A DNA stretch of 27,176 nucleotides. Origin: a virus (taxonomy: Duplodnaviria > Caudoviricetes). The DNA lies in IMG/VR virus record IMGVR_UViG_3300025103_000125, positions 1-27,176 of that record; one strand, 5' to 3'. The notes beneath the pieces were generated by a model that saw nothing but the letters and a program-made list of their open reading frames with translations, did no database searches and had not been told where the DNA came from. The position numbers and the translations under genes were made by a program. This document shows positions 1 to 23,268 of the stretch, piece by piece. How positions within the stretch are numbered: the stretch's first letter is position 1; each line of letters begins with the position of its first letter.

Positions 1-35
1 AGTTCTTTTTTTGTCATGTTGTTTGGGTTTTTCAT
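1..35 (-). CDS. 5' end of a truncated hypothetical gene (MKNPNNMTKKE...)
   Basis: ATG at 35..33 with GGTG shortly upstream on the minus strand; open frame runs off the window edge; not in the ORF track. Confidence 0.35.
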   Translation of the reverse strand, partial: MKNPNNMTKKE

Positions 36-48
36 ATCGACACCATTT

Positions 49-87
49 TGAGAAAAGAAAGTGAGGGGGCAACTTGCGCTGCCCCTT
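49..87 (-). terminator. Intrinsic terminator of the divergent gene
   Basis: Minus strand reads GGGGCAGC-GCAA-GTTGCCCC, then CTCACTTTCTTTTCTC, just after the TAA at 95. Confidence 0.75.
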
Positions 88-94
88 GTTGTTG

Positions 95-568
95 TTACTT
101 GCGCTTTGCTAAGAAAGCTGCGGTTGCCGCTACGCCTGTTGGCTTTCGCCCGCCTGTTTCTTTCGGGATATATTTAAAGCCTTGCGTGGTGGCAAAGCTT
201 TTGCGGGTGATGTCGCGCAGTAGCAGGAGTTGATTTACGTTAATCGCTTTCTCGTCGATCTTGCGTTGCAGTTCTTCCATCTCTTCGTCGTAGTTTGCTT
301 TGTTGGGGTTCTCCGCAAGTACAACCTTGTCAGCTTCAAAGGTGCTTAGTTGGTCTTGCTGATAGGGCAACATGAAATCCACCATGCGGCAAAGTTGGGT
401 TGCGATGTTGCGCCCTTGGTATTCGTCGCCACCTGCAAAGCACATTGTCAAAGCTTCGCAAGCTTCTAGTCCGATGCGGCGTTGTACGTCCGTGTTGATG
501 ACCATTTCATCTGAGGCAACGTTGGTGCTGCCGTCTGCGTTGTGCGTTTCTACATTCAATTTAGCCAT
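95..568 (-). CDS. Hypothetical protein, 157 aa (MAKLNVETHN...), divergently transcribed, probably early
   Basis: AAGGAG at 582..577 precedes the ATG at 568, which is preferred over the track start at 697; followed by a terminator; no recognisable family. Confidence 0.8.
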   Translation of the reverse strand: MAKLNVETHNADGSTNVASDEMVINTDVQRRIGLEACEALTMCFAGGDEYQGRNIATQLCRMVDFMLPYQQDQLSTFEADKVVLAENPNKANYDEEMEELQRKIDEKAINVNQLLLLRDITRKSFATTQGFKYIPKETGGRKPTGVAATAAFLAKRK

Positions 569-609
569 GATCTTAACTCCTTTATCTAGATCGGTTGCTG
601 TTTTTCTTC

Positions 610-931
610 GATTTGGCTTGACCCAAAGTCGGGGGTGGCCGCAGGTTCGTCTTAAAGCATCGGACTTGGCTGCACAGCAACGCGCAAGCGTTGCCACTAA
701 ACAGGGCGCAGCACAACTAAAACGCAGCTTCCAAGATCAACCTGATTTGCGGAAGGTTCATACGCCACCGTCTGCCCGACTCACACACGCCAAGACAAGC
801 CAAGAAGCACAACATGAGGGATAGCAGACGGAACACTAAGAATGTATGAAGGCCGCCAATCTGGTTGATCTTGGCAAGCCGTTGCTTTATGACGGTTCTG
901 CAACCCCCGACTTTGGCGTCTTAGCCAAATC
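610..931 (+). ncRNA. Candidate rod-like structured RNA of about 320 nt (long imperfect fold-back with one side branch)
   Basis: Nested pairings 610-618/923-931, 623-636/903-916, 641-663/879-901, 731-752/853-874, 757-763/844-850, 768-775/824-831; side hairpin GCAACGC-GCAA-GCGTTGC at 677-694; G-U and U-U pairs and the GNRA loop favour the + strand. Confidence 0.65.
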
Positions 932-939
932 TTTTTATT

Positions 940-994
940 AGAGTATTTTCGCAAGAAAATTCAGTATTCTTTTTCTTGTTTGTTTGATCTTTTT
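940..994 (+). terminator. GCAA-tetraloop hairpin followed by T-rich tract (possible terminator of the structured RNA)
   Basis: ATTTTC-GCAA-GAAAAT at 945-960, extendable by AGAGTA/TATTCT, then TTTTCTTGTTTGTTT; stem is AT-rich and weak. Confidence 0.4.
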
Positions 995-1046
995 AAAGGT
1001 CATTTGGTCAAGCTTAACAAGCTTGTCTCTCGGAAGAGCTAACGGA

Positions 1047-1184
1047 GTGACATGATTGGGACAATCATTCTTGTACACTGCATCAGGCAATGAACTGTGA
1101 ATAGCGTATCGCCTATCCTCACTAGGCCAATGCGATACTCACGGCCCACAGGCCGCAGAGACACTTGTGGCTCTGTCTTTGATG
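1047..1184 (+). ncRNA. Second structured element: hairpin plus four-way junction
   Basis: ATGATTG/CAATCAT (1052-1068); CATCAGG/TTTGATG (1081-1087/1178-1184) enclosing GTATCGC/GCGATAC, GGCC-CACA-GGCC and GCAGAG/CTCTGT. Confidence 0.45.
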
Positions 1185-1233
1185 AGTAGCGCGGTTTTGC
1201 AAAGAAGAGAGCGAAGCACAATTAAATGCAAAA

Positions 1234-1303
1234 TTGCCCCAAATTACGTCAATGCTTTTGGCAAGGTGTGACCCCACGTAATTGGCAAGGTTACGTTACG
1301 TCA
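1234..1303. promoter_or_regulatory. Cluster of TTACGT boxes (operator- or iteron-like)
   Basis: TTACGT at 1244, 1291, 1296 (+) and 1276-1281 (-); TTGGCAAGG twice (1258, 1282); AATTACGT/ACGTAATT inverted pair. Confidence 0.45.
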
Positions 1304-1306
1304 CTA

Positions 1307-1337
1307 TTGACAGCGCATTAAGGAATAGTGCTATCGT
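1307..1337 (+). promoter_or_regulatory. Possible sigma70-type promoter for terS
   Basis: Perfect TTGACA (1307-1312) and TGcTATCGT extended -10 (1329-1337); the 19-nt spacer is long; overlapped by CACTATT/AATAGTG inverted repeat. Confidence 0.4.
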
Positions 1338-1360
1338 GGGGGGAGAGAGGGAGAGGGGGG
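1338..1360 (+). repeat. Polypurine mirror repeat
   Basis: GGGGGGAGAG-AGG-GAGAGGGGGG: perfect 10-nt mirror arms, purines only. Confidence 0.85.
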
Positions 1361-1379
1361 CAAGCGAATGAGATATACA

Positions 1380-1475
1380 ATGAATCTTTCTTTATGATGC
1401 TTGCACCATCTAGCAAACACAGACAGCAACAGTTAGTTATGTGCGTGTCATCAGCATAGAAGAAAGGATTTTCAT
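1380..1475 (+). promoter_or_regulatory. Leader hairpin occluding the terS ribosome-binding site
   Basis: ATGAA/TTCAT, TCTTTCTTTATG/CATAGAAGAAAGG, TGCAC/GTGCG and CTAGC/GTTAG; the stem ends one base before the ATG at 1476. Confidence 0.55.
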
Positions 1476-1850
1476 ATGATTCCAGTGACCCGAAAGCTAA
1501 CCGATAAACAGACCGCTTTGGTAGACACCATTGTAGCAAAGGGATGCACATTGGCTCAAGCCGCAGAGCTAGCAGGATACAGTAAGGGCGAGTCTGGAAG
1601 AGTGACTGCTACCAAGACTATGAAGTTGCCCCATGTGCAGCAGTACCTGATGCAGAGGATGAATGAAGAATTTGGAATGAGTGCTACCCTAGCAGCTGGA
1701 ACTATTAGAAGGCTAGCAACAGGGGCTAAGTCTGAGTATGTCCAGTTGGAAGCCAGTAAGGATTTGCTGGATCGTGCAGGGTATAAACCTATTGACCGTT
1801 CTCAAGTGCAGGTGGCAGGAGACATACGTGTATCTATTGACCTTGGTTGA
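1476..1850 (+). CDS. terS: Terminase small subunit
   Basis: KLTDKQ...AAELAGYS...PHVQQY HTH pattern, C-terminal LEASKDLLDRAGYK; AAAGGA RBS; upstream of terL. Confidence 0.85.
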   Translation: MIPVTRKLTDKQTALVDTIVAKGCTLAQAAELAGYSKGESGRVTATKTMKLPHVQQYLMQRMNEEFGMSATLAAGTIRRLATGAKSEYVQLEASKDLLDRAGYKPIDRSQVQVAGDIRVSIDLG

Positions 1851-1989
1851 TCTTCGCTGCGTTTGCCAGAAAACGACCTGCAATGCTTGGGCTTAGGTAG
1901 GGGGGTGGGGGAAAAGTTGCGGTTGAAAACTGTAAGGGGGTCTACCACTCACATTATTTCCCTTCAGAGCTTGCCCACGAATGTGGGCT

Positions 1990-2029
1990 AATTTGTGCAT
2001 TGTCAAAAATATTTTTATCTGCATAAGGT
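1990..2029 (+). promoter_or_regulatory. Putative late promoter, copy 1 of ARTTTGTGCRTTG
   Basis: AATTTGTGCATTG at 1990-2002; TTGTCA-N18-TAAGGT; preceded by GCCCAC-GAAT-GTGGGC hairpin at 1973-1988. Confidence 0.6.
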
Positions 2030-2035
2030 TCTGAC

Positions 2036-2146
2036 ATGAGTAGATTTGATCGTACCCCAGAGAAGCAGCCAGAGAGGGCTGACATGACTGTCGCCAAGGC
2101 TGCTCTCAAGAGTGGTGGATACTTAAGGAAGAAAAAAGATGAGTAA
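2036..2146 (+). CDS. Small hypothetical protein, 36 aa (MSRFDRTPEKQPERADMTVAKAALKSGGYLRKKKDE)
   Basis: Translated by hand; below the ORF-track cutoff; fills the gap after the promoter motif and overlaps the next start. Confidence 0.6.
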   Translation: MSRFDRTPEKQPERADMTVAKAALKSGGYLRKKKDE

Positions 2147-2447
2147 GAAATTAAATCGTGCTGCTGTTGTTCGTCGCAAGCGCAATGAGATTCAACAGCA
2201 AATTTCCAGCCATGAATCCTTCCTAGATAAGCTTGAAGCAGGTTTTGATGTTGTTTCTCCATTTGAGCAGCAATCGGCAGCTAGGCACGCAAGGGATCAA
2301 ATAAAGTCCTTGAAGCTTAAGCTTAAGAAGCTAGGCGGCAAAGTGGTTAAGAAATCAAGCGGCAAAGGCGGCGGCGGTATGTACTCTCCTAGCAAGCCTC
2401 TCAAAGATCAGTCTTTGCTATCTATGGCTAAGAAGAGGCAGATGTAG
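2139..2447 (+). CDS. Small basic hypothetical protein
   Basis: AAGGA upstream; coupled to neighbours; Lys/Arg-rich. Confidence 0.75.
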   Translation: MSKKLNRAAVVRRKRNEIQQQISSHESFLDKLEAGFDVVSPFEQQSAARHARDQIKSLKLKLKKLGGKVVKKSSGKGGGGMYSPSKPLKDQSLLSMAKKRQM

Positions 2448-2713
2448 TGCCAAGTGGTAAGAATTATGTCCGCGATTATTCTATGTCTGGCGAGGGCAAG
2501 TACGACAAGTCGCCTAAACGGATGGCGGCTAACAGGGCAAGGAAGAAGGCTCGTTACAAGTTGGAGAAGTCTGGCAAGGCCAAGCGGAATGATGGCAAGG
2601 ATGTAGACCACAAGAATGGCAATCCGCAAGACAACTCTTCTAAGAATTTGCGCTCTATAGCTAGGGCGGCTAATCGGTCTATTAAAAGGAACGCTAAAGC
2701 AGGAAAGGCTTAG
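2447..2713 (+). CDS. Small HNH-type (His-Me finger) endonuclease
   Basis: DGKDVDHKNGNPQDNSSKNLR...ANRS motif; GTG start overlapping the previous TAG; between terS and terL. Confidence 0.75.
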   Translation: MPSGKNYVRDYSMSGEGKYDKSPKRMAANRARKKARYKLEKSGKAKRNDGKDVDHKNGNPQDNSSKNLRSIARAANRSIKRNAKAGKA

Positions 2714-2715
2714 TT

Positions 2716-2898
2716 ATGTGTGGCGGTGGTAAAAGCGCAGAAGACTACTATAAGGAAATGAAGATTGACTATGGCCCTCTTCCTTCTTTGCTTCAAAGCA
2801 AGATTAAAAGAAGCAAGCCTAAGATGAAGGATGTTCCAAAGCCAAGCGGCGGCGCGATGCAGTCTTCAATGCTTACAGCGCTAAAGAGTAAATACTGA
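2716..2898 (+). CDS. Small basic protein with Met-Cys start (MCGGG), possibly virion-associated
   Basis: In-operon, coupled to next gene (TGATG). Confidence 0.7.
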   Translation: MCGGGKSAEDYYKEMKIDYGPLPSLLQSKIKRSKPKMKDVPKPSGGAMQSSMLTALKSKY

Positions 2899-3197
2899 TG
2901 CCTAATCCACAAAAGCCAGAAGATCGTTTTAATTACCGCTATACCGTTTTGACTGATGCGGCTGACGCTATTGAGAATGAACTTAAAGGTAAATACCCTT
3001 ATAAAGCCAAGCGGCTTTTTGCGAGGTACTTTAAAGGCAAGAAGTTTGAAGACAACATGGAAGAAGCGAGGAAGCTTGGTCAAAGAACTATAACTGCTCG
3101 TCACCATTCTTTGCTACAGCGAATAAAAAAAATGGAACGGCAGATGTTTAAGTCTGACGCAAAGCAGCAAGAGGCTGACAGGGATAAAATACCATAG
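2898..3197 (+). CDS. Hypothetical basic protein
   Basis: Coupled start; co-oriented in the operon. Confidence 0.7.
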   Translation: MPNPQKPEDRFNYRYTVLTDAADAIENELKGKYPYKAKRLFARYFKGKKFEDNMEEARKLGQRTITARHHSLLQRIKKMERQMFKSDAKQQEADRDKIP

Positions 3198-12208: not shown

Positions 12209-12639
12209 GCGCTCAATTAGCATTAGGCTTAATGCAAGCTGGAGGTGCTTTAATCCAAGGGATAGGCGCTTATCAAACAGCAAAGCTTCAAACGTTTAAT
12301 ATTGGCACTGAATCTCAACTTGCAAATGCGCAAGGGATACAAACGCGCACAGCAGCGATAGGCGCATTTAAAAGCGCGGTTAAAAGTGCAGACGCTTTGT
12401 ATAGTAAATTTGGTCGTGATGTATCTGATCCATCTGCGTTAGCTCAAAAAAGGGCTGATAAAGCAGTTGTTGGGAGTGACATTTCAGATGTAGCAATTAT
12501 GGCAAGAATAAATCAGCTTGCTATGAAACAACAGGGTGCAGCCACAATGAGAAAAGGTCGAGAAAGCCTCTATGCTTCAATGATGGAAGCTGCAACGACT
12601 GGTGGTGAAGCCTACTTTGATTGGAAGAAGACTCAATAA
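12205..12639 (+). CDS. Small internal virion (ejection) protein, T7 gp14-like
   Basis: Hydrophobic Gly/Ala-rich N-terminus; Ala/Gln-rich helical body; position after the nozzle. Confidence 0.7.
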   Translation: MSAQLALGLMQAGGALIQGIGAYQTAKLQTFNIGTESQLANAQGIQTRTAAIGAFKSAVKSADALYSKFGRDVSDPSALAQKRADKAVVGSDISDVAIMARINQLAMKQQGAATMRKGRESLYASMMEAATTGGEAYFDWKKTQ

Positions 12640-15600
12640 TGGCTATTGTAAGACAACAAAAAAGATTTGGGATTGCGCCCATTGGCGTTACCAGAGTTCC
12701 AGTTGCAGGGCAAGAAATTGGTCAGGCTGTAAAAGAGTCAGCCGCCAAAATGAGAGCCAGAGCTTTTGAGTTTGAAAAAAACAAAGCTATTGAGTCAGGT
12801 GAGCTACAAGCAGCAGAGCTTGGAATTAATGAAATACTCTCCTTTGACCCAGATACCAAAAAACCAATTGCCTCTCAACAAGCAGATCACATGGGGGAGT
12901 TTCGGAAAAACGCTTTTGAGAGAGTTCTTCTTCAACGCTTCCAAACATCTGTAAGCGATCAAATATCAGCAAAAGCCAATGAGATTGCACAAAAGGTTTC
13001 TGTTGAAGACAATGCTCCAGAGTTATTTGAGCAGACCCTCAATGCTTACCTAGAAGGTATTGGGCAAGATGCGTCTGGCTATTACAAACAAGTCATTGTT
13101 GACGCAGGAGCATCAGCAAGAACCAGAGGCGAAAGCCAACTTGAAGTTTTGCAAATCCAAAAAATGCAAGAAGAAACAAGACTTGCTTACTCTCGGCTTT
13201 TAAATGACTTCTATGAGTCGGCTTATAACTCAGGTGCAAGTGGCGATGGTGACTTTCATGAGTTTTACCAAACACAAACCGCAGTTGGCACACAGTTTGA
13301 AGACTTCAAAACGCTAGGGATTGCGACTAACAACAAGTCTATAGAAGAGTTTAAAGCGGCAAAAACAGCTTTCCTTAAAGGAAGAATCTCAACTATACTA
13401 AAGCAGCCAGAAGTCGCAGAGTTTTCGGGCATGATACAAACCTACCTTCAAGTAGGCGGCAGCAAGGCAATAATGGATATACTGCCACAAAAAGCTCAAC
13501 ACGCGCTAAAGCAAGTTATGCTGCTCTCTGATGACTTTACACAAGCAGACTTTGTTTCTCTTTCTGCTGATCTGAATACAGAATTTAGCGCGGCTTCAAA
13601 TGTTGGCGCAGTGTTTGCCGAACAAAGAAGAATTGAGCAAGCGCGGATAGCCGAGGAACAAAAAGCTTTTGTCGCTGACCTTAAGCAGCAAGTTTTCGAT
13701 AACACTCAAATATTTGAAGACACATCAGCCGAAGCTTACATTAAGGGCAGAAATTTTACTCCAATAGAAGTAAAAAGCATTATGGCGCAGATGGATACTC
13801 TGCTTGATGAAGCTGCTTATTATCAGGCTGACATTGGCGCTGAAGCTTTTGGCAAACTAAAGACGGCAGTAATAAAGCAGAAAGAACAGCTTGCCGCAGG
13901 TCTTATGTCTCAATTGCTTTCTTTGCCTAGAAAGCCAAAAAAAGGACCAGCAAAAGGCGGTGTTAGCCATACTGTATTAAATAAAGAGCAGATTTCTTTT
14001 CTAATTGATGGGATTAAAGACCCAAAAGTTCTTTTTAGCATACTGCCAAAAGAACACGCTAATCTGTATTTTGACCTTATGATGGAGAACCCAACTCCAT
14101 TTAAGGATTTTTTAACTGGTCGGAAAAAAATAGCCACAACTGTACAGCAAGATAGAAAAGCTGCACTTTCGTTGGCTATGGATCGGCTTCAGACATCTAC
14201 TTTGCAAAGTATAAAGCTGAACACAACATCGTTAAGTGATGCAAAAGCAATTGCAGAGAAGTTTAAAGAAACATTTCGCTCAGAAAAGTTAATTGGGACT
14301 GAGTATCAAAGCGCTTGGAAAGAAATTTCAAACGCAATAACCGCTAAACAAAATGAAGATGATTTAGAAGGTTTTAAAGAATTTGCGTCAGGCCTTGTAG
14401 GTCGAGCTGGCTCTGGTGTAAAATTTAAAGATGTTGGGAAAGCTTTAGTAAGGGAGGGGGATGCGGTTGGGGCTAGTATAGATGTATTAACCTCACAGGC
14501 GCAAAAAATTGTTGATGATTATGCTGACTCTCAATTGAGAAAAACATTAGGGGGTCTTTCTCAAAATCCAAGCGAAAAAGTAGAATCTTTACAAAGGTTA
14601 GAAAGTTTTTTTCTAGGGGATGTTACAGTAGAGCTTACACAAGAAGAAAAGCTAATTGCTGACGCTGTAAATAAAGCTCAATTAAACATTAAAGGTACTC
14701 CTGTTCGTTTTAATAATAAACAAATTACATCTGTTCTTTCAGGTCTTGCCTCAAACGAAAGTGCAGATATTGATTCAGCACAAAAAGCGCGTACAAAAAC
14801 TGAGTTAGAGGCTAAAATTGACGCTAAAACACCATTTACTTCTGAACAATTAAAAGACCCAAGGGGTATTACAAACACTGCTGCTGAAATGCTTGGCCTT
14901 AATCCAAGTGACTTTCCTGATTTATACACAATGTCAAGTGAACAGATTTCAGAAATTAAAGGCATAGGCAATTTCTTAACTTACTCTAAGGGCAATCCGT
15001 ATTTTCCTAATATGCTTATTGTGGATTCTGCAAGAAGCCTTCTTGATGGTCAGTTAAATGACCAACAGGCAGAAAACTTTGCTATGCACTTAAGGGAAGA
15101 GTTCTTTTTTCTTCAAGATGGAAGGCTAAAAGTTAAACCTGCATATTTGGGTATTGATAGCGATCTAAGCCAAGAAGATATAGCCAAGCTCAAAGTGTTC
15201 TCAATGGCTGATTTGGTGTCAGCATCTTATCAAGGTGGTGTTGGCAGGTTTATAAATGAAGTTTTAATTGCCCAAAATTTAACTAAAGAACAGTTTAAAG
15301 GCATGACTAATTTTGAAGATGCTACTTCTTTGGCATTAGCCGCAAGTATTCCATCTCAATTAATTCCTAGCATTACTCCTGTTATTGAGGCTGCGGTTAT
15401 AGCAAATCAAATCGGGGGCAATAATTGGAAAAAAATTGTTAAGGGCATTTATGAAACAGGTTTTGTGGAAGACCCTAATGCTTATTCGATCTTTACTGGT
15501 GGCAGTGAGTTTTCGGCTCTTCATTGGACTGATTATCTTAGTGCGGATGACAAGCCAAAGTTTGATAGGTTTATAGCGCAAAAGCTCCAAAACATTAATA

Positions 15601-16406
15601 TTTTAAATATAGGCCAAGAAAGGCTTGTAAAATATTATCCAAACTCAAAAGTTACTGTGACTCAAATGAGGCACGACCCAGACATATATCCGATTCAAAC
15701 AACAAAGGATTTGTTTGGCAATCTAACGAATCACTTGGCTGAGTTAGATCAGGTTGATCGTGCTTTTGTTGGCGCTCACCCATCTAGCGATGCTGCAAAT
15801 CCTATATGGATGGTGTTTAGAATGAGGCAGGATGGAAGTGTTGACGAAGTTGTTGGCTCTGCTTTTGGCCTTAATGATTTGAAAGCATCTTTCGAGGCTG
15901 AACTTACTAACCTTGAGCAACAGTTTTATGGAGTTGAAGAACAGCCAGAAGTATATACTGAGTCTGGGGCCGAAGAAACAAATCTAGGTCAATTGGAGCA
16001 ACAGTTAATAACTGAATTTGGCGAAGAAAATTACAAAAATGCTGTAAAAAGCGTTGGAACTGCAAATGAGCAAGCTCTTATAAGCAAATTGCAAGACCTT
16101 TCGGGAGTAAAAACCGAAACAAAATCATTAGGTGATACGCTTATAGACCTTGTAACAGAGGGCGACGATAATGGCCTTACTTACACACAAAAAAATAGGC
16201 TGTCTCAAGTAAAAAGTAGAACGTTAAATTGGATCAGAACACAGAAAAAATACGACACAGGTTATGGGCCAAAGTCAAATGAGCTTGCTAAAGATTATAT
16301 AACTAGAGTTGACGCTTACAGAAAGCTTCTTGGCTATAAAAGTGTTGATGAAGTTCCTGACTTTATTTTAGATGAAATCCAGAAAATGTTGGATGGGGAA
16401 AAATAA
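12639..16406 (+). CDS. Large internal virion (ejection) protein, gp15-like position, 1255 aa
   Basis: ATG at 12639 in a TAATG overlap (preferred over 12621); long helical low-Cys protein; synteny. Confidence 0.7.
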   Translation: MAIVRQQKRFGIAPIGVTRVPVAGQEIGQAVKESAAKMRARAFEFEKNKAIESGELQAAELGINEILSFDPDTKKPIASQQADHMGEFRKNAFERVLLQRFQTSVSDQISAKANEIAQKVSVEDNAPELFEQTLNAYLEGIGQDASGYYKQVIVDAGASARTRGESQLEVLQIQKMQEETRLAYSRLLNDFYESAYNSGASGDGDFHEFYQTQTAVGTQFEDFKTLGIATNNKSIEEFKAAKTAFLKGRISTILKQPEVAEFSGMIQTYLQVGGSKAIMDILPQKAQHALKQVMLLSDDFTQADFVSLSADLNTEFSAASNVGAVFAEQRRIEQARIAEEQKAFVADLKQQVFDNTQIFEDTSAEAYIKGRNFTPIEVKSIMAQMDTLLDEAAYYQADIGAEAFGKLKTAVIKQKEQLAAGLMSQLLSLPRKPKKGPAKGGVSHTVLNKEQISFLIDGIKDPKVLFSILPKEHANLYFDLMMENPTPFKDFLTGRKKIATTVQQDRKAALSLAMDRLQTSTLQSIKLNTTSLSDAKAIAEKFKETFRSEKLIGTEYQSAWKEISNAITAKQNEDDLEGFKEFASGLVGRAGSGVKFKDVGKALVREGDAVGASIDVLTSQAQKIVDDYADSQLRKTLGGLSQNPSEKVESLQRLESFFLGDVTVELTQEEKLIADAVNKAQLNIKGTPVRFNNKQITSVLSGLASNESADIDSAQKARTKTELEAKIDAKTPFTSEQLKDPRGITNTAAEMLGLNPSDFPDLYTMSSEQISEIKGIGNFLTYSKGNPYFPNMLIVDSARSLLDGQLNDQQAENFAMHLREEFFFLQDGRLKVKPAYLGIDSDLSQEDIAKLKVFSMADLVSASYQGGVGRFINEVLIAQNLTKEQFKGMTNFEDATSLALAASIPSQLIPSITPVIEAAVIANQIGGNNWKKIVKGIYETGFVEDPNAYSIFTGGSEFSALHWTDYLSADDKPKFDRFIAQKLQNINILNIGQERLVKYYPNSKVTVTQMRHDPDIYPIQTTKDLFGNLTNHLAELDQVDRAFVGAHPSSDAANPIWMVFRMRQDGSVDEVVGSAFGLNDLKASFEAELTNLEQQFYGVEEQPEVYTESGAEETNLGQLEQQLITEFGEENYKNAVKSVGTANEQALISKLQDLSGVKTETKSLGDTLIDLVTEGDDNGLTYTQKNRLSQVKSRTLNWIRTQKKYDTGYGPKSNELAKDYITRVDAYRKLLGYKSVDEVPDFILDEIQKMLDGEK

Positions 16407-20259: not shown

Positions 20260-23200
20260 ATGGCTGTTCTTAAAAACAGAGCAAAAATGTCAACGTCCAG
20301 TACTGGTACTGGAACCATTACTCTGGGTAGCGCTGAGACTGGATACCAATCTTTTGCTGATGCAGGAGTGGCTAATTCTGATGTGGTTCGCTATGTCATT
20401 GAGGATAGCAATAATTGGGAAATAGGAACAGGAACTTACACATCTAGTGGGACAACGCTCTCTCGTACTGTAAGTGAAAGTAGCAACTCTGGTTCTGCTT
20501 TAAACTTAAGTGGCTCTGCAACTGTATTTATTACTGCTGCCGCAGAAGACTTACCTAACCTTTATGCTGACAATCCTGTTTCTGCTGTTGCTCCTACAGC
20601 AAGTGGGAATAATGCGGTAGCAATAGGCGAAGAATCTACAGCGAGTGGAACAGATTCTATTTCGCTTGGCTCTGATAGTGACGCAACTCAAACTGAGTCA
20701 TCCGCTTTAGGTAAGTTTGCTCAAGCCACAGGAAGCGGCTCAGTTGCCCTTGGTGCTAGGTCAGTCGCAAGTGGCTCAAATTCAGTTGCTCTTGGTGGAT
20801 ACACAGATGCGACTAGCACTAACTCAATAGCGATTGGTTATCCTGCTCAAGCTGTTACTGGTAGTGGGGCTACTGCGATTGGTAATTCTTACGCTTCTGG
20901 TGCTGATAGTTTCGCAGCAGTAATTACTAATAACACAAGTAGTTACGGCGCTACTGGGCAGGGCGCAACCGTAATTGGCAATACATCAAAAGGGACAGGT
21001 GAAAGAACTGTAAGTATTGGGCAAGGTAATATTGCATCTGGTGCAAATGCTACTGCGATAGGATACTTAAATACATCTGGAACTACGTCATACAGCACTG
21101 CAATTGGTTATAATAATACCGCGAGTGCTGCTTGGGCGATGGCTCTTGGCAACGATAGCACGGCAAGTCATTCTAAAAGTGTAAGTATAGGGGACAGCGT
21201 TACGAGTACAGCCGCTAATCAAGTTAACATTGGTGGAAGCACTCAAGCTGTACGCATCTCAGAAAGTTATACCCTACCAACTGCTGACGGAAGCGCCAAT
21301 CAGGTGCTTCAGACAGACGGCAGTGGAGCCTTATCCTTTGCTACTGCAAGCGGTGGCGGTGGTGCAGACTTATATGCTGCCAACGAAAGTAGTCCATCAG
21401 CCCAACCCTCAGCCACGGGTGCAAATGCCGTGGCGCTGGGAGATAGCGCTGTATCAAGGGATACAAGTACCCTCGCAGGGCCACATAGTAGAGCGGATGG
21501 TGATTATTCGGTTGCTCTGGGAATTGCTAACAATAGTAGTTCTTATGGCGCTGGTGGAGACAACTCAATTTCCATAGGCTATCAATCAAGAGCCATGGCA
21601 CTTCAGTCGGCCACACTTGGGGCAGGCGCTTACGTCGATAGCGATAGTGGGCGTGGGCTTTCGTTAGGCGAAAATGCCTATGTCGAACAGATGGATTATG
21701 GTTCTGCAATTGGTGCAAACGCAAGAGTTCATGGGTCTAACTCCGCGACACATGCTGTGGCATTGGGAACTTCTAGGGCGGCTGGAAGTCATAGTTTTGC
21801 AGCAGCCACAACAAGTAACTCCAGTTCCTACGGCGCTACTGGCTCAAATAGTGTATCGATTGGACGGCGAAGCAAGGCAACTGGATCGACCAGTTTCGCC
21901 TTTGGCGGTTGGATAAATAGCACTGGTTCATATTCAGTCGGCATTGGCGACAGTAGTACCGCAAGTGGAAACTATTCATACGCGATTGGAAGCAGCAATA
22001 CAGCATCACACACTGCGTCTGTTGTAATTGGTAAGGGCGCTTCATCCTCTGCTTCAGATCAAATTACTTTAGGGCATACAAATCAAAGTGTACGAGTATC
22101 ATCTTCCTACACCCTGCCTTCGGCTGACGGTACAAGCGGCCAAGTTTTAACTACAGCGGGAGATGGAACTACAAGTTGGTCTACTGCTTCAGGCGGTGGT
22201 GGCGGCGACCCAGACCTCTACCGTGATAATCCAGTGTCCGCTACGACACCTACGGCGAGTGGTAATAATGCAGTCGCAATAGGCACAAACGCGCAGGCAA
22301 CAAGTACAAATGCCGTAGCCATAACAAGAAACGCCCTAGCCAGTGGAAATTCATCATTCGCAGCGGGAAATAATGCGGCGGCAACTGGCACAAATGCTGT
22401 GGCACTTGGCTCCAGTACGGATGCGGCAGAACGCGCAGTGGCTATTGGTAGCGGCTCTCAGGCAGTCCAGCAAAATACAACCGCAATTGGTACTAACTCA
22501 TCTTCTCAAGCCCCAGTTGCAGGTAAGTTCGGTGGCGGCGCAGGTGCCGTAGCCCTTGGTGGTTCGTACAGCGGGGGAACTGACAGTTTTGCGGCAGCCA
22601 TTGCTAACAACACTAGCAGCTATGGAGCGAGTGGTGACTACAGCGTGGCTGTTGGTAGGCAAGCAAAGGCTACTGGCGGCAGCGCAGTAGCTTTAAATTA
22701 CCAAGCAATCGCAAGCGGTTACGGCTCAGTAAGCACAGGGCAGAACAGCAACGCATCAGCCTCTTACTCCACTGTAATCGGTGGTCGTTATGGTGAGGCT
22801 AATGAGAAATCAAAGGTTACGTTTGGCGGTGGTAACTGGTTAAACGATGGTGGCGCGGTAAACCTTGCGCACCAAACTGGCTTATTTAATCTCGCAGGGT
22901 TCACAACCGATGGCACTGCTAAGACGCTAACAACTTATGACAGCACAGCTTCTAGTGATAACCAAGTAGTCCTGCCAAACAACTCTGCTTATGCCTTCAG
23001 CGGTACTATTGTTGCCCGTGAAAAAGCATCCGAGGGTACTGATTGTGCCGCTTGGGAAATCAAAGGACTTATCAGACGTGAAGGCAGCGCAGGGACAACA
23101 GTCCTAGTCAACAGCGCAACAACTGTCCTAGACAACACACCCAACTGGGGCATGGCACTAAGTGCCGACACTACAAACGGCTGCTTAAAAGTTGCAGTAA

Positions 23201-23268
23201 CTGGCGCAGCATCCACAAATATTCGTTGGGCTGGAACCATCACAACCTCAGAATTAACATACGCCTAA
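20260..23268 (+). CDS. Fibre/receptor-binding protein with YadA-like head (Hep/Hag) repeats
   Basis: Dozens of roughly 14-aa A.G..(S/A).A(I/L)G repeats in three modules joined by YTLP.ADG...QVL.T.G.G necks; N-terminal TGTGTITLG...WEIGTGTY anchor. Confidence 0.88.
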   Translation: MAVLKNRAKMSTSSTGTGTITLGSAETGYQSFADAGVANSDVVRYVIEDSNNWEIGTGTYTSSGTTLSRTVSESSNSGSALNLSGSATVFITAAAEDLPNLYADNPVSAVAPTASGNNAVAIGEESTASGTDSISLGSDSDATQTESSALGKFAQATGSGSVALGARSVASGSNSVALGGYTDATSTNSIAIGYPAQAVTGSGATAIGNSYASGADSFAAVITNNTSSYGATGQGATVIGNTSKGTGERTVSIGQGNIASGANATAIGYLNTSGTTSYSTAIGYNNTASAAWAMALGNDSTASHSKSVSIGDSVTSTAANQVNIGGSTQAVRISESYTLPTADGSANQVLQTDGSGALSFATASGGGGADLYAANESSPSAQPSATGANAVALGDSAVSRDTSTLAGPHSRADGDYSVALGIANNSSSYGAGGDNSISIGYQSRAMALQSATLGAGAYVDSDSGRGLSLGENAYVEQMDYGSAIGANARVHGSNSATHAVALGTSRAAGSHSFAAATTSNSSSYGATGSNSVSIGRRSKATGSTSFAFGGWINSTGSYSVGIGDSSTASGNYSYAIGSSNTASHTASVVIGKGASSSASDQITLGHTNQSVRVSSSYTLPSADGTSGQVLTTAGDGTTSWSTASGGGGGDPDLYRDNPVSATTPTASGNNAVAIGTNAQATSTNAVAITRNALASGNSSFAAGNNAAATGTNAVALGSSTDAAERAVAIGSGSQAVQQNTTAIGTNSSSQAPVAGKFGGGAGAVALGGSYSGGTDSFAAAIANNTSSYGASGDYSVAVGRQAKATGGSAVALNYQAIASGYGSVSTGQNSNASASYSTVIGGRYGEANEKSKVTFGGGNWLNDGGAVNLAHQTGLFNLAGFTTDGTAKTLTTYDSTASSDNQVVLPNNSAYAFSGTIVAREKASEGTDCAAWEIKGLIRREGSAGTTVLVNSATTVLDNTPNWGMALSADTTNGCLKVAVTGAASTNIRWAGTITTSELTYA

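What the first reader, a model, noticed from the sequence alone, without database searches (positions are those of the whole stretch)
610..931. Viroid-sized rod-like fold-back between the early and packaging genes
Seen: six nested helices, roughly 80 bp in total, close a 322-nt element, including a perfect 14-bp CCAAAGTCGGGGGT/ACCCCCGACTTTGG. A side branch (669-730) carries a GCAA tetraloop hairpin, and the unpaired parts are strongly A/C-rich. Regular bulges, G-U pairs and U-U mismatches look like a selected RNA fold rather than a recent inverted duplication. Inference: an unrecognised phage ncRNA, such as a protein or RNAP decoy, packaged RNA, antiterminator, or RNase III-processed precursor releasing the inner domain. 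A ssDNA/cruciform role at an origin or genome end is an alternative. I do not recognise it as a known family.
Basis: partly seen in the sequence, partly recalled or inferred. Interest (0 to 1): 0.85.

Follow-up and report, generated by a model that had tools for sequence, protein, structure and literature searches.

The report
Single-strand promoter-like fold in marine phages
A 322-base fold-back just ahead of the first early gene of a marine tailed phage is kept by many relatives on the DNA strand that serves as template, and it likely acts as folded single-stranded DNA, probably a promoter like those conjugative plasmids use on entry, which would mean these double-stranded phages expose one strand early in infection.

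Summary
The fold is real (z -10.6) and selected: 15 pairs change on both sides between two alleles, and relatives, including Pelagibacter phage Hodr, carry 130-340-nt rods in the same slot. It is probably not an RNA. Pairing is kept on the + strand, the template of the leftward early gene (G·T 40 vs A·C 3). That strand is enriched in DNA-type C-GNA-G mini-hairpins (41 vs 15.7 expected), while RNA tetraloops and terminators are rare and no upstream promoter signal was found. A neighbouring 60-nt motif is homologous to sequence flanking both Frpo single-strand promoters of plasmid F, on the same strand and in the same order. The early operons carry DUF932, and ArdC in Hodr. Best reading: an Frpo-like ssDNA promoter (TTG-17/18-xA in the right arm), 0.5. 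Against: a generic promoter score is not enriched, the rods share no sequence with Frpo, one relative lacks the -10 arm, and how the strand becomes single is unknown. The scan noted Frpo-like hairpins in other tailed phages earlier (AI notes), none matching this DNA.

The parts
95..568 (-). First gene of the leftward early operon, 157 aa, all-helical hairpin protein of unknown function; distant homologues occupy this slot across the family
   Evidence: no Pfam/PHROG hit (7, 8); no fold match at E<=0.001 (130)
577..582 (-). Shine-Dalgarno-like site of the first early gene
   Evidence: sequence
610..931 (+). Branched rod, 106 predicted pairs; functional strand +, the template for the leftward gene
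612..627 (.). Alternative local hairpin in the left arm; it would lie near the 5' end of the predicted transcript; a counterpart is visible in relatives
   Evidence: sequence; role inferred
649..654 (+). Template-arm partner of the predicted -10 box; predicted start about 642 on the - strand, about 75 nt before the ATG
   Evidence: inferred
669..730 (+). Side domain on the template arm: GCAA hairpin 677-694 and a GCGCAGC DNA mini-hairpin at 706-712, where L002 has a 4-bp hairpin. It separates the template-arm -35 and -10 partners in double-stranded DNA
735..740 (+). Template-arm partner of the predicted -35 box
   Evidence: inferred
750..855 (+). Apical module (GGAAGGTTCATAC ... ATGAARGCC) with A/C-rich loop; found nested inside four other outer stems, with a covarying inner helix
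865..893 (+). Predicted non-template promoter boxes in the right arm: TTGATC (865-870), 17 nt, TATGAC (888-893)
   Evidence: function untested
932..1010 (+). T-rich tail and A/T tracts after the rod; a T-rich tail is present in only 7 of 58 elements
1133..1194 (+). Divergent copy of 'motif B', whose closer phage copies are homologous to sequence beside both Frpo rods of plasmid F
   Evidence: score 61 vs at most 43.5 in 300 shuffles; missed by the HMMs
1290..1360 (+). Conserved palindromes, TTGACA promoter-like site (1307) and G-rich tract (1338-1360) ahead of terS; likely late promoter region
1476..1850 (+). Terminase small subunit, first gene of the rightward packaging/structural arm

Best explanation
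The element is a conserved rod that keeps its pairing on the template strand of the first early gene, and it likely folds as single-stranded DNA into an Frpo-like promoter that is predicted to drive the early operon while that strand is unpaired. When the + strand is single, the right arm would pair with the left arm and the side domain would loop out. This would build a continuous duplex with TTG(-35) and an A(-11) box lacking T(-7), as many alphaproteobacterial promoters do. Host RNA polymerase would start at about 642 and run leftwards out of the stem through a short leader into the first gene and the DUF932/ArdC-type genes behind it, and the transcript could also prime the complementary strand. 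In double-stranded DNA the template-arm boxes are about 80 nt apart, so this promoter would be off. Shown: fold, conservation, covariation, strand, loop chemistry, flanking plasmid homology. Inferred: DNA rather than RNA, promoter activity, start site. Unknown: what makes the strand single (resection of the entering end, single-strand entry, or strand displacement in replication).
For: Strand: 1x1 mismatches inside Watson-Crick stems are G·T 40 vs A·C 3 on + over 61 non-redundant elements; 29 vs 3 distinct contexts, p 2.6e-6; + is the more stable strand in 53 of 62. DNA chemistry: xC-GNA-Gx' mini-hairpins number 41 in 30 of 58 elements vs 15.7+-3.6 in shuffles (max 26 of 200), 9 on the other strand, with the middle base free; about 20 vs 5 with one element per cluster. 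The side hairpin shrinks to a bare 2-bp GNA hairpin in several relatives. Only GNA loops form such DNA mini-hairpins, and they occur at ssDNA origins and N4 promoters (PMC13037366, passages). Plasmid cassette: motif B matches F at 77% over 62-67 nt, E 2e-8 to 9e-8, just beyond each Frpo rod on the template strand, in the same order gene-rod-motif (shuffled F best E 0.005). An HMM built from phage copies only finds both F copies. 1,670 plasmid records match, 1,545 of them conjugative or mobilizable. Genes: a DUF932 cluster in 42 of 80 terS loci; F has a DUF932 gene second behind one Frpo rod; Hodr has ArdC and SSB. Boxes: A at the -11 position for a 17/18-nt spacer after the right-arm TTG in 35 of 42 elements, the highest of 31 offsets (next 29), and in 16 of 21 clusters. 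Loss of T(-7) is common in Alphaproteobacteria (PMC8407463, abstract).
Against: A generic TTGACA/TATAAT score is no higher in the right arm than in the other three arm/strand choices (10.7 vs 10.5-10.7, p 0.13-0.91). The anchored test used hand-picked anchors after I saw the data, and 4 of 21 clusters fail it. The rods share no sequence with plasmid promoters. The F Frpo rods carry no C-GNA-G mini-hairpin on their template strand; only the rod before ardB does. Motif B is in only 9 of 74 intergenic regions by HMM, not in Hodr, and the window's copy is found only by pairwise alignment; 28 of 58 viral contigs with it show neither terS nor the first gene. L004 lacks about 60 nt of the right arm, including the predicted -10 box. 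Several relatives have decent ordinary leftward promoters beyond the rod. The right-arm boxes could simply fire rightwards in dsDNA. No route to ssDNA is shown for this phage.
Confidence: 0.5

Rival explanations
1. A + strand non-coding RNA, antisense to the early leader, that folds into the rod and acts as a regulator or protein/RNA-polymerase decoy.
For: G·T over A·C bias fits RNA as well as DNA. The window has a GCAA tetraloop and a U-run after the rod. Short variants are 6S-sized, 130-200 nt. Modules with A/C-rich loops swap in the apex.
Against: GNRA loops are 2 and cUNCGg 0 of 144 tetraloop hairpin contexts on +; a T-rich tail follows only 7 of 58 rods. The 60 nt before the rod score no better as a promoter than their own shuffles (11.06 vs 11.37), although they score above sequence deeper in the gene. 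DNA-type mini-hairpins are enriched. No Rfam match.
Confidence: 0.2
2. A single-stranded DNA signal for replication rather than gene expression: a priming site (ssi/sso type) and/or a roadblock acting on a displaced or resected + strand, with motif B and the apical modules as protein-loading sites.
For: Same strand and loop evidence. No polymerase, primase or helicase hit among the 20-22 Hodr and L002 proteins scanned, but exonuclease, SSB, resolvase and initiator hits in Hodr. Frpo-type rods also prime and stall replication (10.64898/2026.01.09.698686, passages). It does not need good promoter boxes.
Against: It does not explain why the rod always abuts the first gene's start (39 of 58 begin within 10 nt of the ATG; all 46 of 48 core-motif contigs with a first-gene hit have it 75-138 nt from that gene), nor the TTG/A(-11) spacing. 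It is not exclusive of the best explanation.
Confidence: 0.17
3. A one-strand hairpin extruded from supercoiled duplex DNA, as for N4 early promoters, so that no long-lived ssDNA is needed.
For: N4 promoters use GNA mini-hairpins on the template strand. This would explain the strand bias in a dsDNA phage.
Against: N4 hairpins have about 5 bp, not 60-100 imperfect pairs. No T7/N4-type polymerase motifs in the three largest proteins and no PDB match for the 1,261-aa protein.
Confidence: 0.06
4. A 5' leader of the early mRNA (- strand) that hides the ribosome site until RNase III or a protein opens it; or a symmetric cruciform.
For: The - strand also folds well (z -9.4). The basal helix covers the SD in 39 of 58 elements. 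Leftward promoter candidates exist beyond the rod in some relatives.
Against: Wobble pairs are kept on the opposite strand, also in the SD-proximal helix (G·T 16, A·C 0). A cruciform predicts no strand bias. SD hiding may still be a side effect that silences read-through transcripts.
Confidence: 0.05

Closest known systems
Frpo1/Frpo2 (ssp1a/b), ssp2 and ColIb-P9 ssi single-stranded DNA promoters of conjugative plasmid leading regions
   Same: Long imperfect rod of similar size directly upstream of a gene, folded on the template strand; -35/-10-like boxes predicted in the stem; a homologous 60-nt motif beyond the rod on the same strand; DUF932, SSB or anti-restriction genes downstream; a 17-nt match including GCGAAGC between four phage apices and the F rod before ardB (E 0.68, not significant alone).
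   Different: In a tailed phage, with no relaxase or transfer gene among the hits seen. No sequence homology of the rod. Three-way junction with side hairpin, swappable apical modules and many GNA mini-hairpins. Boxes lack T(-7). One copy at the early/late junction. Activity untested.
Single-strand origins and initiation signals (G4 ori, RSF1010 ssiA; ssoA recalled)
   Same: Strand-specific DNA folds with GNA-type mini-hairpins.
   Different: Those sit at replication origins of ssDNA or strand-displacement replicons; here the fold is tied to a gene start. No priming test.
Phage N4 virion-RNA-polymerase hairpin promoters
   Same: Tailed dsDNA phage using a template-strand DNA hairpin with a GNA loop for early transcription.
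   Different: Tiny hairpins read by a phage polymerase; none detected here.
6S RNA, STAXI and other Rfam families; viroids
   Same: Rod shape and size range only; STAXI is a motif near ssb/anti-restriction genes for which an ssDNA role was weighed (PMC2864571, passages).
   Different: No Rfam match for the element, for 20 related loci or for the F copies of motif B.

Membership tests
Frpo/ssp ssDNA promoters | Long intergenic stem-loop directly upstream of a gene | tested here: met
Frpo/ssp ssDNA promoters | Fold is selected on the template strand of that gene | tested here: met
   G·T 40 vs A·C 3; 29 vs 3 contexts
Frpo/ssp ssDNA promoters | -35 and -10 boxes rebuilt in the stem, facing the gene | tested here: inconclusive
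   generic score negative; anchored A(-11) 35 of 42, post hoc
Frpo/ssp ssDNA promoters | Sequence homology of the rod to Frpo/ssi/ssp | tested here: not met
   only the flanking motif B is homologous
Frpo/ssp ssDNA promoters | Lies in the leading region of a conjugative element that is transferred as ssDNA | tested here: not met
   terminase, portal, capsid and tail genes; no transfer gene among scanned proteins of window or Hodr; the window lacks most of the early arm
Frpo/ssp ssDNA promoters | Controls establishment/anti-defence genes | tested here: inconclusive
   DUF932 in 42 of 80 loci, ArdC and SSB in Hodr; first gene unknown; control not shown
Frpo/ssp ssDNA promoters | Transcribed by host RNA polymerase as ssDNA but not as dsDNA | not testable with these tools
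   needs in vitro transcription or start mapping
N4-type hairpin promoters | Virion-packaged RNA polymerase | tested here: not met
   no motifs; no PDB hit for the 1,261-aa protein
N4-type hairpin promoters | Short template-strand hairpin with GNA loop at a fixed distance from the start | tested here: inconclusive
   GNA mini-hairpins enriched but at several positions
Known RNA families (6S, ribozymes, STAXI, others in Rfam 15) | Covariance-model match | tested here: not met
   0 at E<=1 in window 1-3000; 0 at gathering in 20 loci
Phage ncRNA in general | Discrete transcript with own promoter and terminator | tested here: inconclusive
   no reads on the element; promoter test negative; T-tail 7 of 58
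Viroid-like circular RNA | Circular RNA form, self-cleaving motif | tested here: inconclusive
   no ribozyme match; no RNA coverage to test circles

The most novel reading that the evidence does not exclude
This family of marine podoviruses, which includes a cultured SAR11 phage, starts infection like a conjugative plasmid: the leading part of its genome is single-stranded in the new host, and a new class of modular, branched ssDNA promoter plus a plasmid-shared ssDNA motif switches on anti-defence genes and primes the second strand.
Probability: 0.3. Interest if true: 0.9.

Novelty: new variant of a known kind. Interest (0 to 1): 0.72.

Why it matters
Host-polymerase ssDNA promoters are established for conjugative plasmids, which enter as one strand. 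Tailed phages are assumed to be double-stranded from entry. A template-strand fold with DNA-type loops, a flanking motif homologous to the F Frpo cassette and leading-region-type genes suggests that this phage family (about 1,500 stored stretches match its terS) passes through an ssDNA state at its early/late junction. That makes a basic question testable in a cultured system, Hodr on Pelagibacter HTCC1062: in what form does the genome end reach the cytoplasm, and how are the first genes fired before host defences act? It also shows a 60-nt motif, absent from Rfam and not seen in the papers I read, shared by over 1,600 plasmids and by phages. It warns that strong rod folds in phage genomes need not be RNAs.

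Tried and rejected
Rfam: nothing for the window, 20 loci or motif B in F. RNA evidence: one run with a 0.06 share; two 151-nt contigs at 953-1103 and 1158-1308, none on the element, uninformative. Named phages: no DNA match for 1-2000, for the Hodr intergenic region (self only) or for motif B. Core motif in GTDB genomes: 0 exact matches, so no host or prophage clue. Two of the 13 metagenome hits to the apical pattern (L151, L153) look like chance matches. Generic promoter scan: negative. An apparent excess of + strand promoters before the rod vanished against same-window shuffles. My yes/no rod criterion was weak: 44 of 61 shuffles passed it, so conservation rests on excess energy and long-range pair counts (median 57 vs 19). 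Motif B folds no better than shuffles in F, L070, L159 and L160; only the window copy does (z -3.9). A mirror arrangement of motif B around terS was considered and dropped (20 copies + and left, 2 on -). dif/Xer, attC, LexA box, group II domain V, K-turn and retron resemblances were weighed by eye from recall and rejected for missing partners; no tool test. First early protein: 5 close homologues only, no Atlas hit (30), no plasmid hit for a family member (100), helical hairpin model with no fold match (116, 130); the profile search was never returned, so its wider family is open. Literature: no paper on Hodr found; no listing on ssDNA promoters in tailed phages.

Full report
Observation. The segment 610-931 folds into one branched rod: -148.3 kcal/mol, z -10.6 as + strand RNA and -9.4 as - strand; z -10.3 and -8.6 with DNA parameters. 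It has 106 pairs, 92 in the rod, including the perfect 14-bp helix 623-636/903-916; 75 of 110 unpaired bases are A or C; it is the strongest of 67 sampled windows in the contig. Rfam has no match at E<=1.

Context. The contig is the structural arm of a podovirus: terS at 1476, terL, portal, capsid, tail tube and internal virion proteins. The closest named phage is Pelagibacter phage Hodr (capsid 53%, terS 45%), which has the same divergent layout. The host of this phage is not known. The rod starts 42 nt upstream of the ATG (568) of a leftward 157-aa gene, the first of the early arm. That protein is a helical hairpin with no family or fold match; distant homologues fill the slot in relatives.

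Conservation. Four contigs encode close relatives of the first gene (L001 is identical to the window and may be its source). In L002 both outer arms differ while the fold is kept: 15 of 95 consensus pairs change on both sides. These come from only two alleles, so this is one comparison. The L002-type rod also occurs with a terS identical to the window's (L137), so alleles are exchanged. I took the best 80 of 593 confirmed terS loci. By my count, 46 of the 75 loci scanned (including L001-L004 and Hodr) have a 260-nt window with z<=-5, mostly next to the leftward gene; the window's own element scored only -3 there because 260 nt cuts it. After removing near-duplicates, 61 regions have a median of 57 confident long-range pairs against 19 in shuffles, but my yes/no rod criterion was passed by 44 of 61 shuffles and is not evidence. 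Rods measure 130-344 nt; 39 of 58 begin within 10 nt of the ATG. A common core at a three-way junction occurs in 48 viral contigs; 46 have a first-gene hit 75-138 nt away and 44 a terS hit, always in the same orientation. It has no exact match in GTDB genomes. The window's apical module nests in four other outer stems with a covarying inner helix. Against: L004 lacks about 60 nt of the right arm, and some loci show no strong fold.

Strand. Single mismatches inside Watson-Crick stems are G·T 40 times and A·C 3 times on the + strand (24 loci one way, 2 the other, 35 ties), or 29 vs 3 as distinct contexts, and 16 vs 0 next to the SD. The + strand is the more stable against shuffles in 53 of 62 (some domains there were drawn too wide). 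The + strand is the template of the early gene. This argues against an mRNA leader and against a cruciform.

DNA or RNA. Two-base-pair hairpins with a C-GNA-G loop occur 41 times in 30 of 58 elements on +, against 15.7+-3.6 in 200 shuffles (max 26) and 9 on -; the middle base varies (a few lie in over-extended domain ends). One element per cluster gives about 20 vs 5. In several relatives the side hairpin is reduced to such a hairpin alone, and the window's GCGCAGC (706-712) stands where L002 has a 4-bp hairpin. A review states that only GNA loops form these DNA mini-hairpins (Tm 70-76 C), that RNA counterparts are much weaker, and that they occur at the G4 origin, ssiA and N4 promoters (PMC13037366, passages). 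RNA-type loops are rare (GNRA 2, cUNCGg 0 of 144 contexts), and a T-rich tail follows 7 of 58 rods, the window among them. A promoter for a + strand RNA is not seen once composition is controlled. The only RNA run offered did not cover the element. So ssDNA is inferred, not shown.

Link to plasmid leading regions. I fetched the F leading region as a control. The rods share no significant sequence with it or with plasmids. A second motif to the right of the rod ('motif B') does: 77% over 62-67 nt, E 2e-8 to 9e-8, to two sites just beyond the two Frpo rods, on the template strand, in the same order gene-rod-motif; shuffled F gave at best E 0.005. I assigned the F rods to Frpo1, Frpo2 and ssp2 by position, from passages of PMC9849209 and PMC13478746. 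An HMM trained on phage copies (9 of 74 regions, all +) finds both F copies; its Xanthobacter and Massilia hits were chosen by BLAST and are not independent. 1,670 of 72,556 plasmid records match, 1,310 conjugative and 235 mobilizable, mostly enterobacterial. The window's copy (1133-1194) is divergent: it aligns to the L006 copy above all 300 shuffles but the HMMs miss it, and Hodr has none. Of 58 viral contigs with the motif, 28 show neither terS nor the first gene. The early arms carry a DUF932 gene in 42 of 80 loci, weakly similar to the F DUF932 protein behind one Frpo rod (19-24% in the five best hits, best E 2e-6). Hodr carries ArdC, SSB, a YqaJ exonuclease, RusA and an initiator, with no polymerase, primase or helicase hit among the proteins scanned. 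ArdC has an ssDNA-binding domain (PMC6222260, abstract listing).

Promoter test. In the Frpo geometry the right arm is the non-template strand. The window reads TTGATC-17-TATGAC there (865-893), L002 TTGCAG-17-TATACC, L058 TTGACA-17-CATGAC and Hodr TTGTTA-16-TATATT. On the template arm the partners are split by the side domain, so in dsDNA no leftward promoter forms. A generic score gives no support. Anchored on the conserved TTG, A falls at -11 in 35 of 42 elements, the peak of 31 offsets, and in 16 of 21 clusters; the anchors were chosen by hand. T(-7) is absent, as in most alphaproteobacterial promoters (PMC8407463, abstract). The result is inconclusive but leans positive.

Mechanism. Most likely (0.5): the + strand, when single, folds into a host-polymerase promoter that fires the early operon from about 642 and may prime the second strand, as Frpo/ssp do (PMC12672017, PMC11541004 and 10.64898/2026.01.09.698686, passages; Masai and Arai 1997 seen only as cited). 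Rivals: + strand ncRNA 0.2; replication-only ssDNA signal 0.17; N4-like extrusion 0.06; mRNA leader or cruciform 0.05. An ssDNA role of some kind is thus about 0.7. The weak step is the source of ssDNA. Resection of an entering genome end near terS would expose the + strand. 8 of 21 truncated contigs stop within 134 nt of the terS start, but the G-rich tract there could break assemblies, so this is only a hint.

Novelty. It works like an Frpo/ssp promoter but fails two membership features (rod homology, conjugative leading region), so I file it as a new variant, not a member. Searches for ssDNA promoters in tailed phages, for this RNA-like element and for Hodr found nothing relevant in the listings; the library lacks most subscription papers, and bioRxiv supplements were closed. 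The supplements of PMC2864571 were searched by term only. I reached the ssDNA reading, which showed that other agents of this scan had proposed Frpo-like hairpins in other tailed phages and an undescribed tail on Frpo repeats; those are unchecked AI notes. Look-ups by place, sequence and marine-podovirus words found nothing on this DNA.

Noticed in passing
window 1290-1360 and most terS loci: Conserved block before terS: TGACG..CGTCA-type palindromes (59 of 77 loci), a TTGACA promoter-like site and a G-rich tract (53 of 77); likely late promoter with operator, possibly near the packaging start.
   Followed up: partly
L005, L014, L015, L025, L049, L051, L073, L084: 8 of 21 contigs truncated within 1.5 kb upstream of terS end within 134 nt of its start; genome end or assembly break at the G-rich tract.
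   Followed up: partly
L004 (window equivalent about 883-942): About 60-nt deletion removes the right outer arm, including the predicted -10 box; real variant or assembly error unknown.
   Followed up: no
L158 6087-6186 and 11478-11574; L159 6011-6103; L160 6009-6114: Motif B, about 60 nt, beside both F Frpo rods and in 1,670 plasmid records; no Rfam family; in the Xanthobacter and Massilia plasmids no Frpo-like gene-rod layout is evident from the annotation.
   Followed up: partly
L161-L218: 28 of 58 viral contigs with motif B show neither this terS nor the first gene; several have a strong fold to its left, so other phage groups may carry similar cassettes.
   Followed up: no
L181/L184, L162, L183, L210, L211: Motif B on the opposite strand relative to terS; in L181/L184 directly downstream of terS.
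   Followed up: partly
L085 13573-14457 (Hodr): Unannotated ArdC anti-restriction gene in the early operon; also YqaJ exonuclease, SSB, RusA and an HTH-DnaT initiator, all deposited as hypothetical.
   Followed up: partly
L008, L055, L057, L064, L072 right arm: A clade with TTGACT, a 30-nt spacer holding a conserved 13-nt looped segment, then TAnnAT; looping out would give a 17-nt consensus spacing (read by eye).
   Followed up: no
right base of many rods, e.g. L016, L017, L028, L085: The right arm repeats the SD and ATG of the early gene on the + strand, giving tiny ORFs of variable length; probably just the stem extending into the gene start.
   Followed up: no
L008, L009, L055, L057, L066, L067, L072: A second long fold follows the first in the intergenic region.
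   Followed up: no
window 1851-2035: G-rich run and an AAAAATATTTTT palindrome (2005-2016) after terS; similar G/C-run plus AT-palindrome blocks lie near motif B in L162, L183, L184 and L210; possible packaging signal.
   Followed up: no
window 12621-16406: 1,261-aa probable internal virion protein with no Pfam, PHROG or PDB match.
   Followed up: partly
window 20260-23268: 1,002-aa tail-fibre-like protein with YadA head repeats.
   Followed up: no
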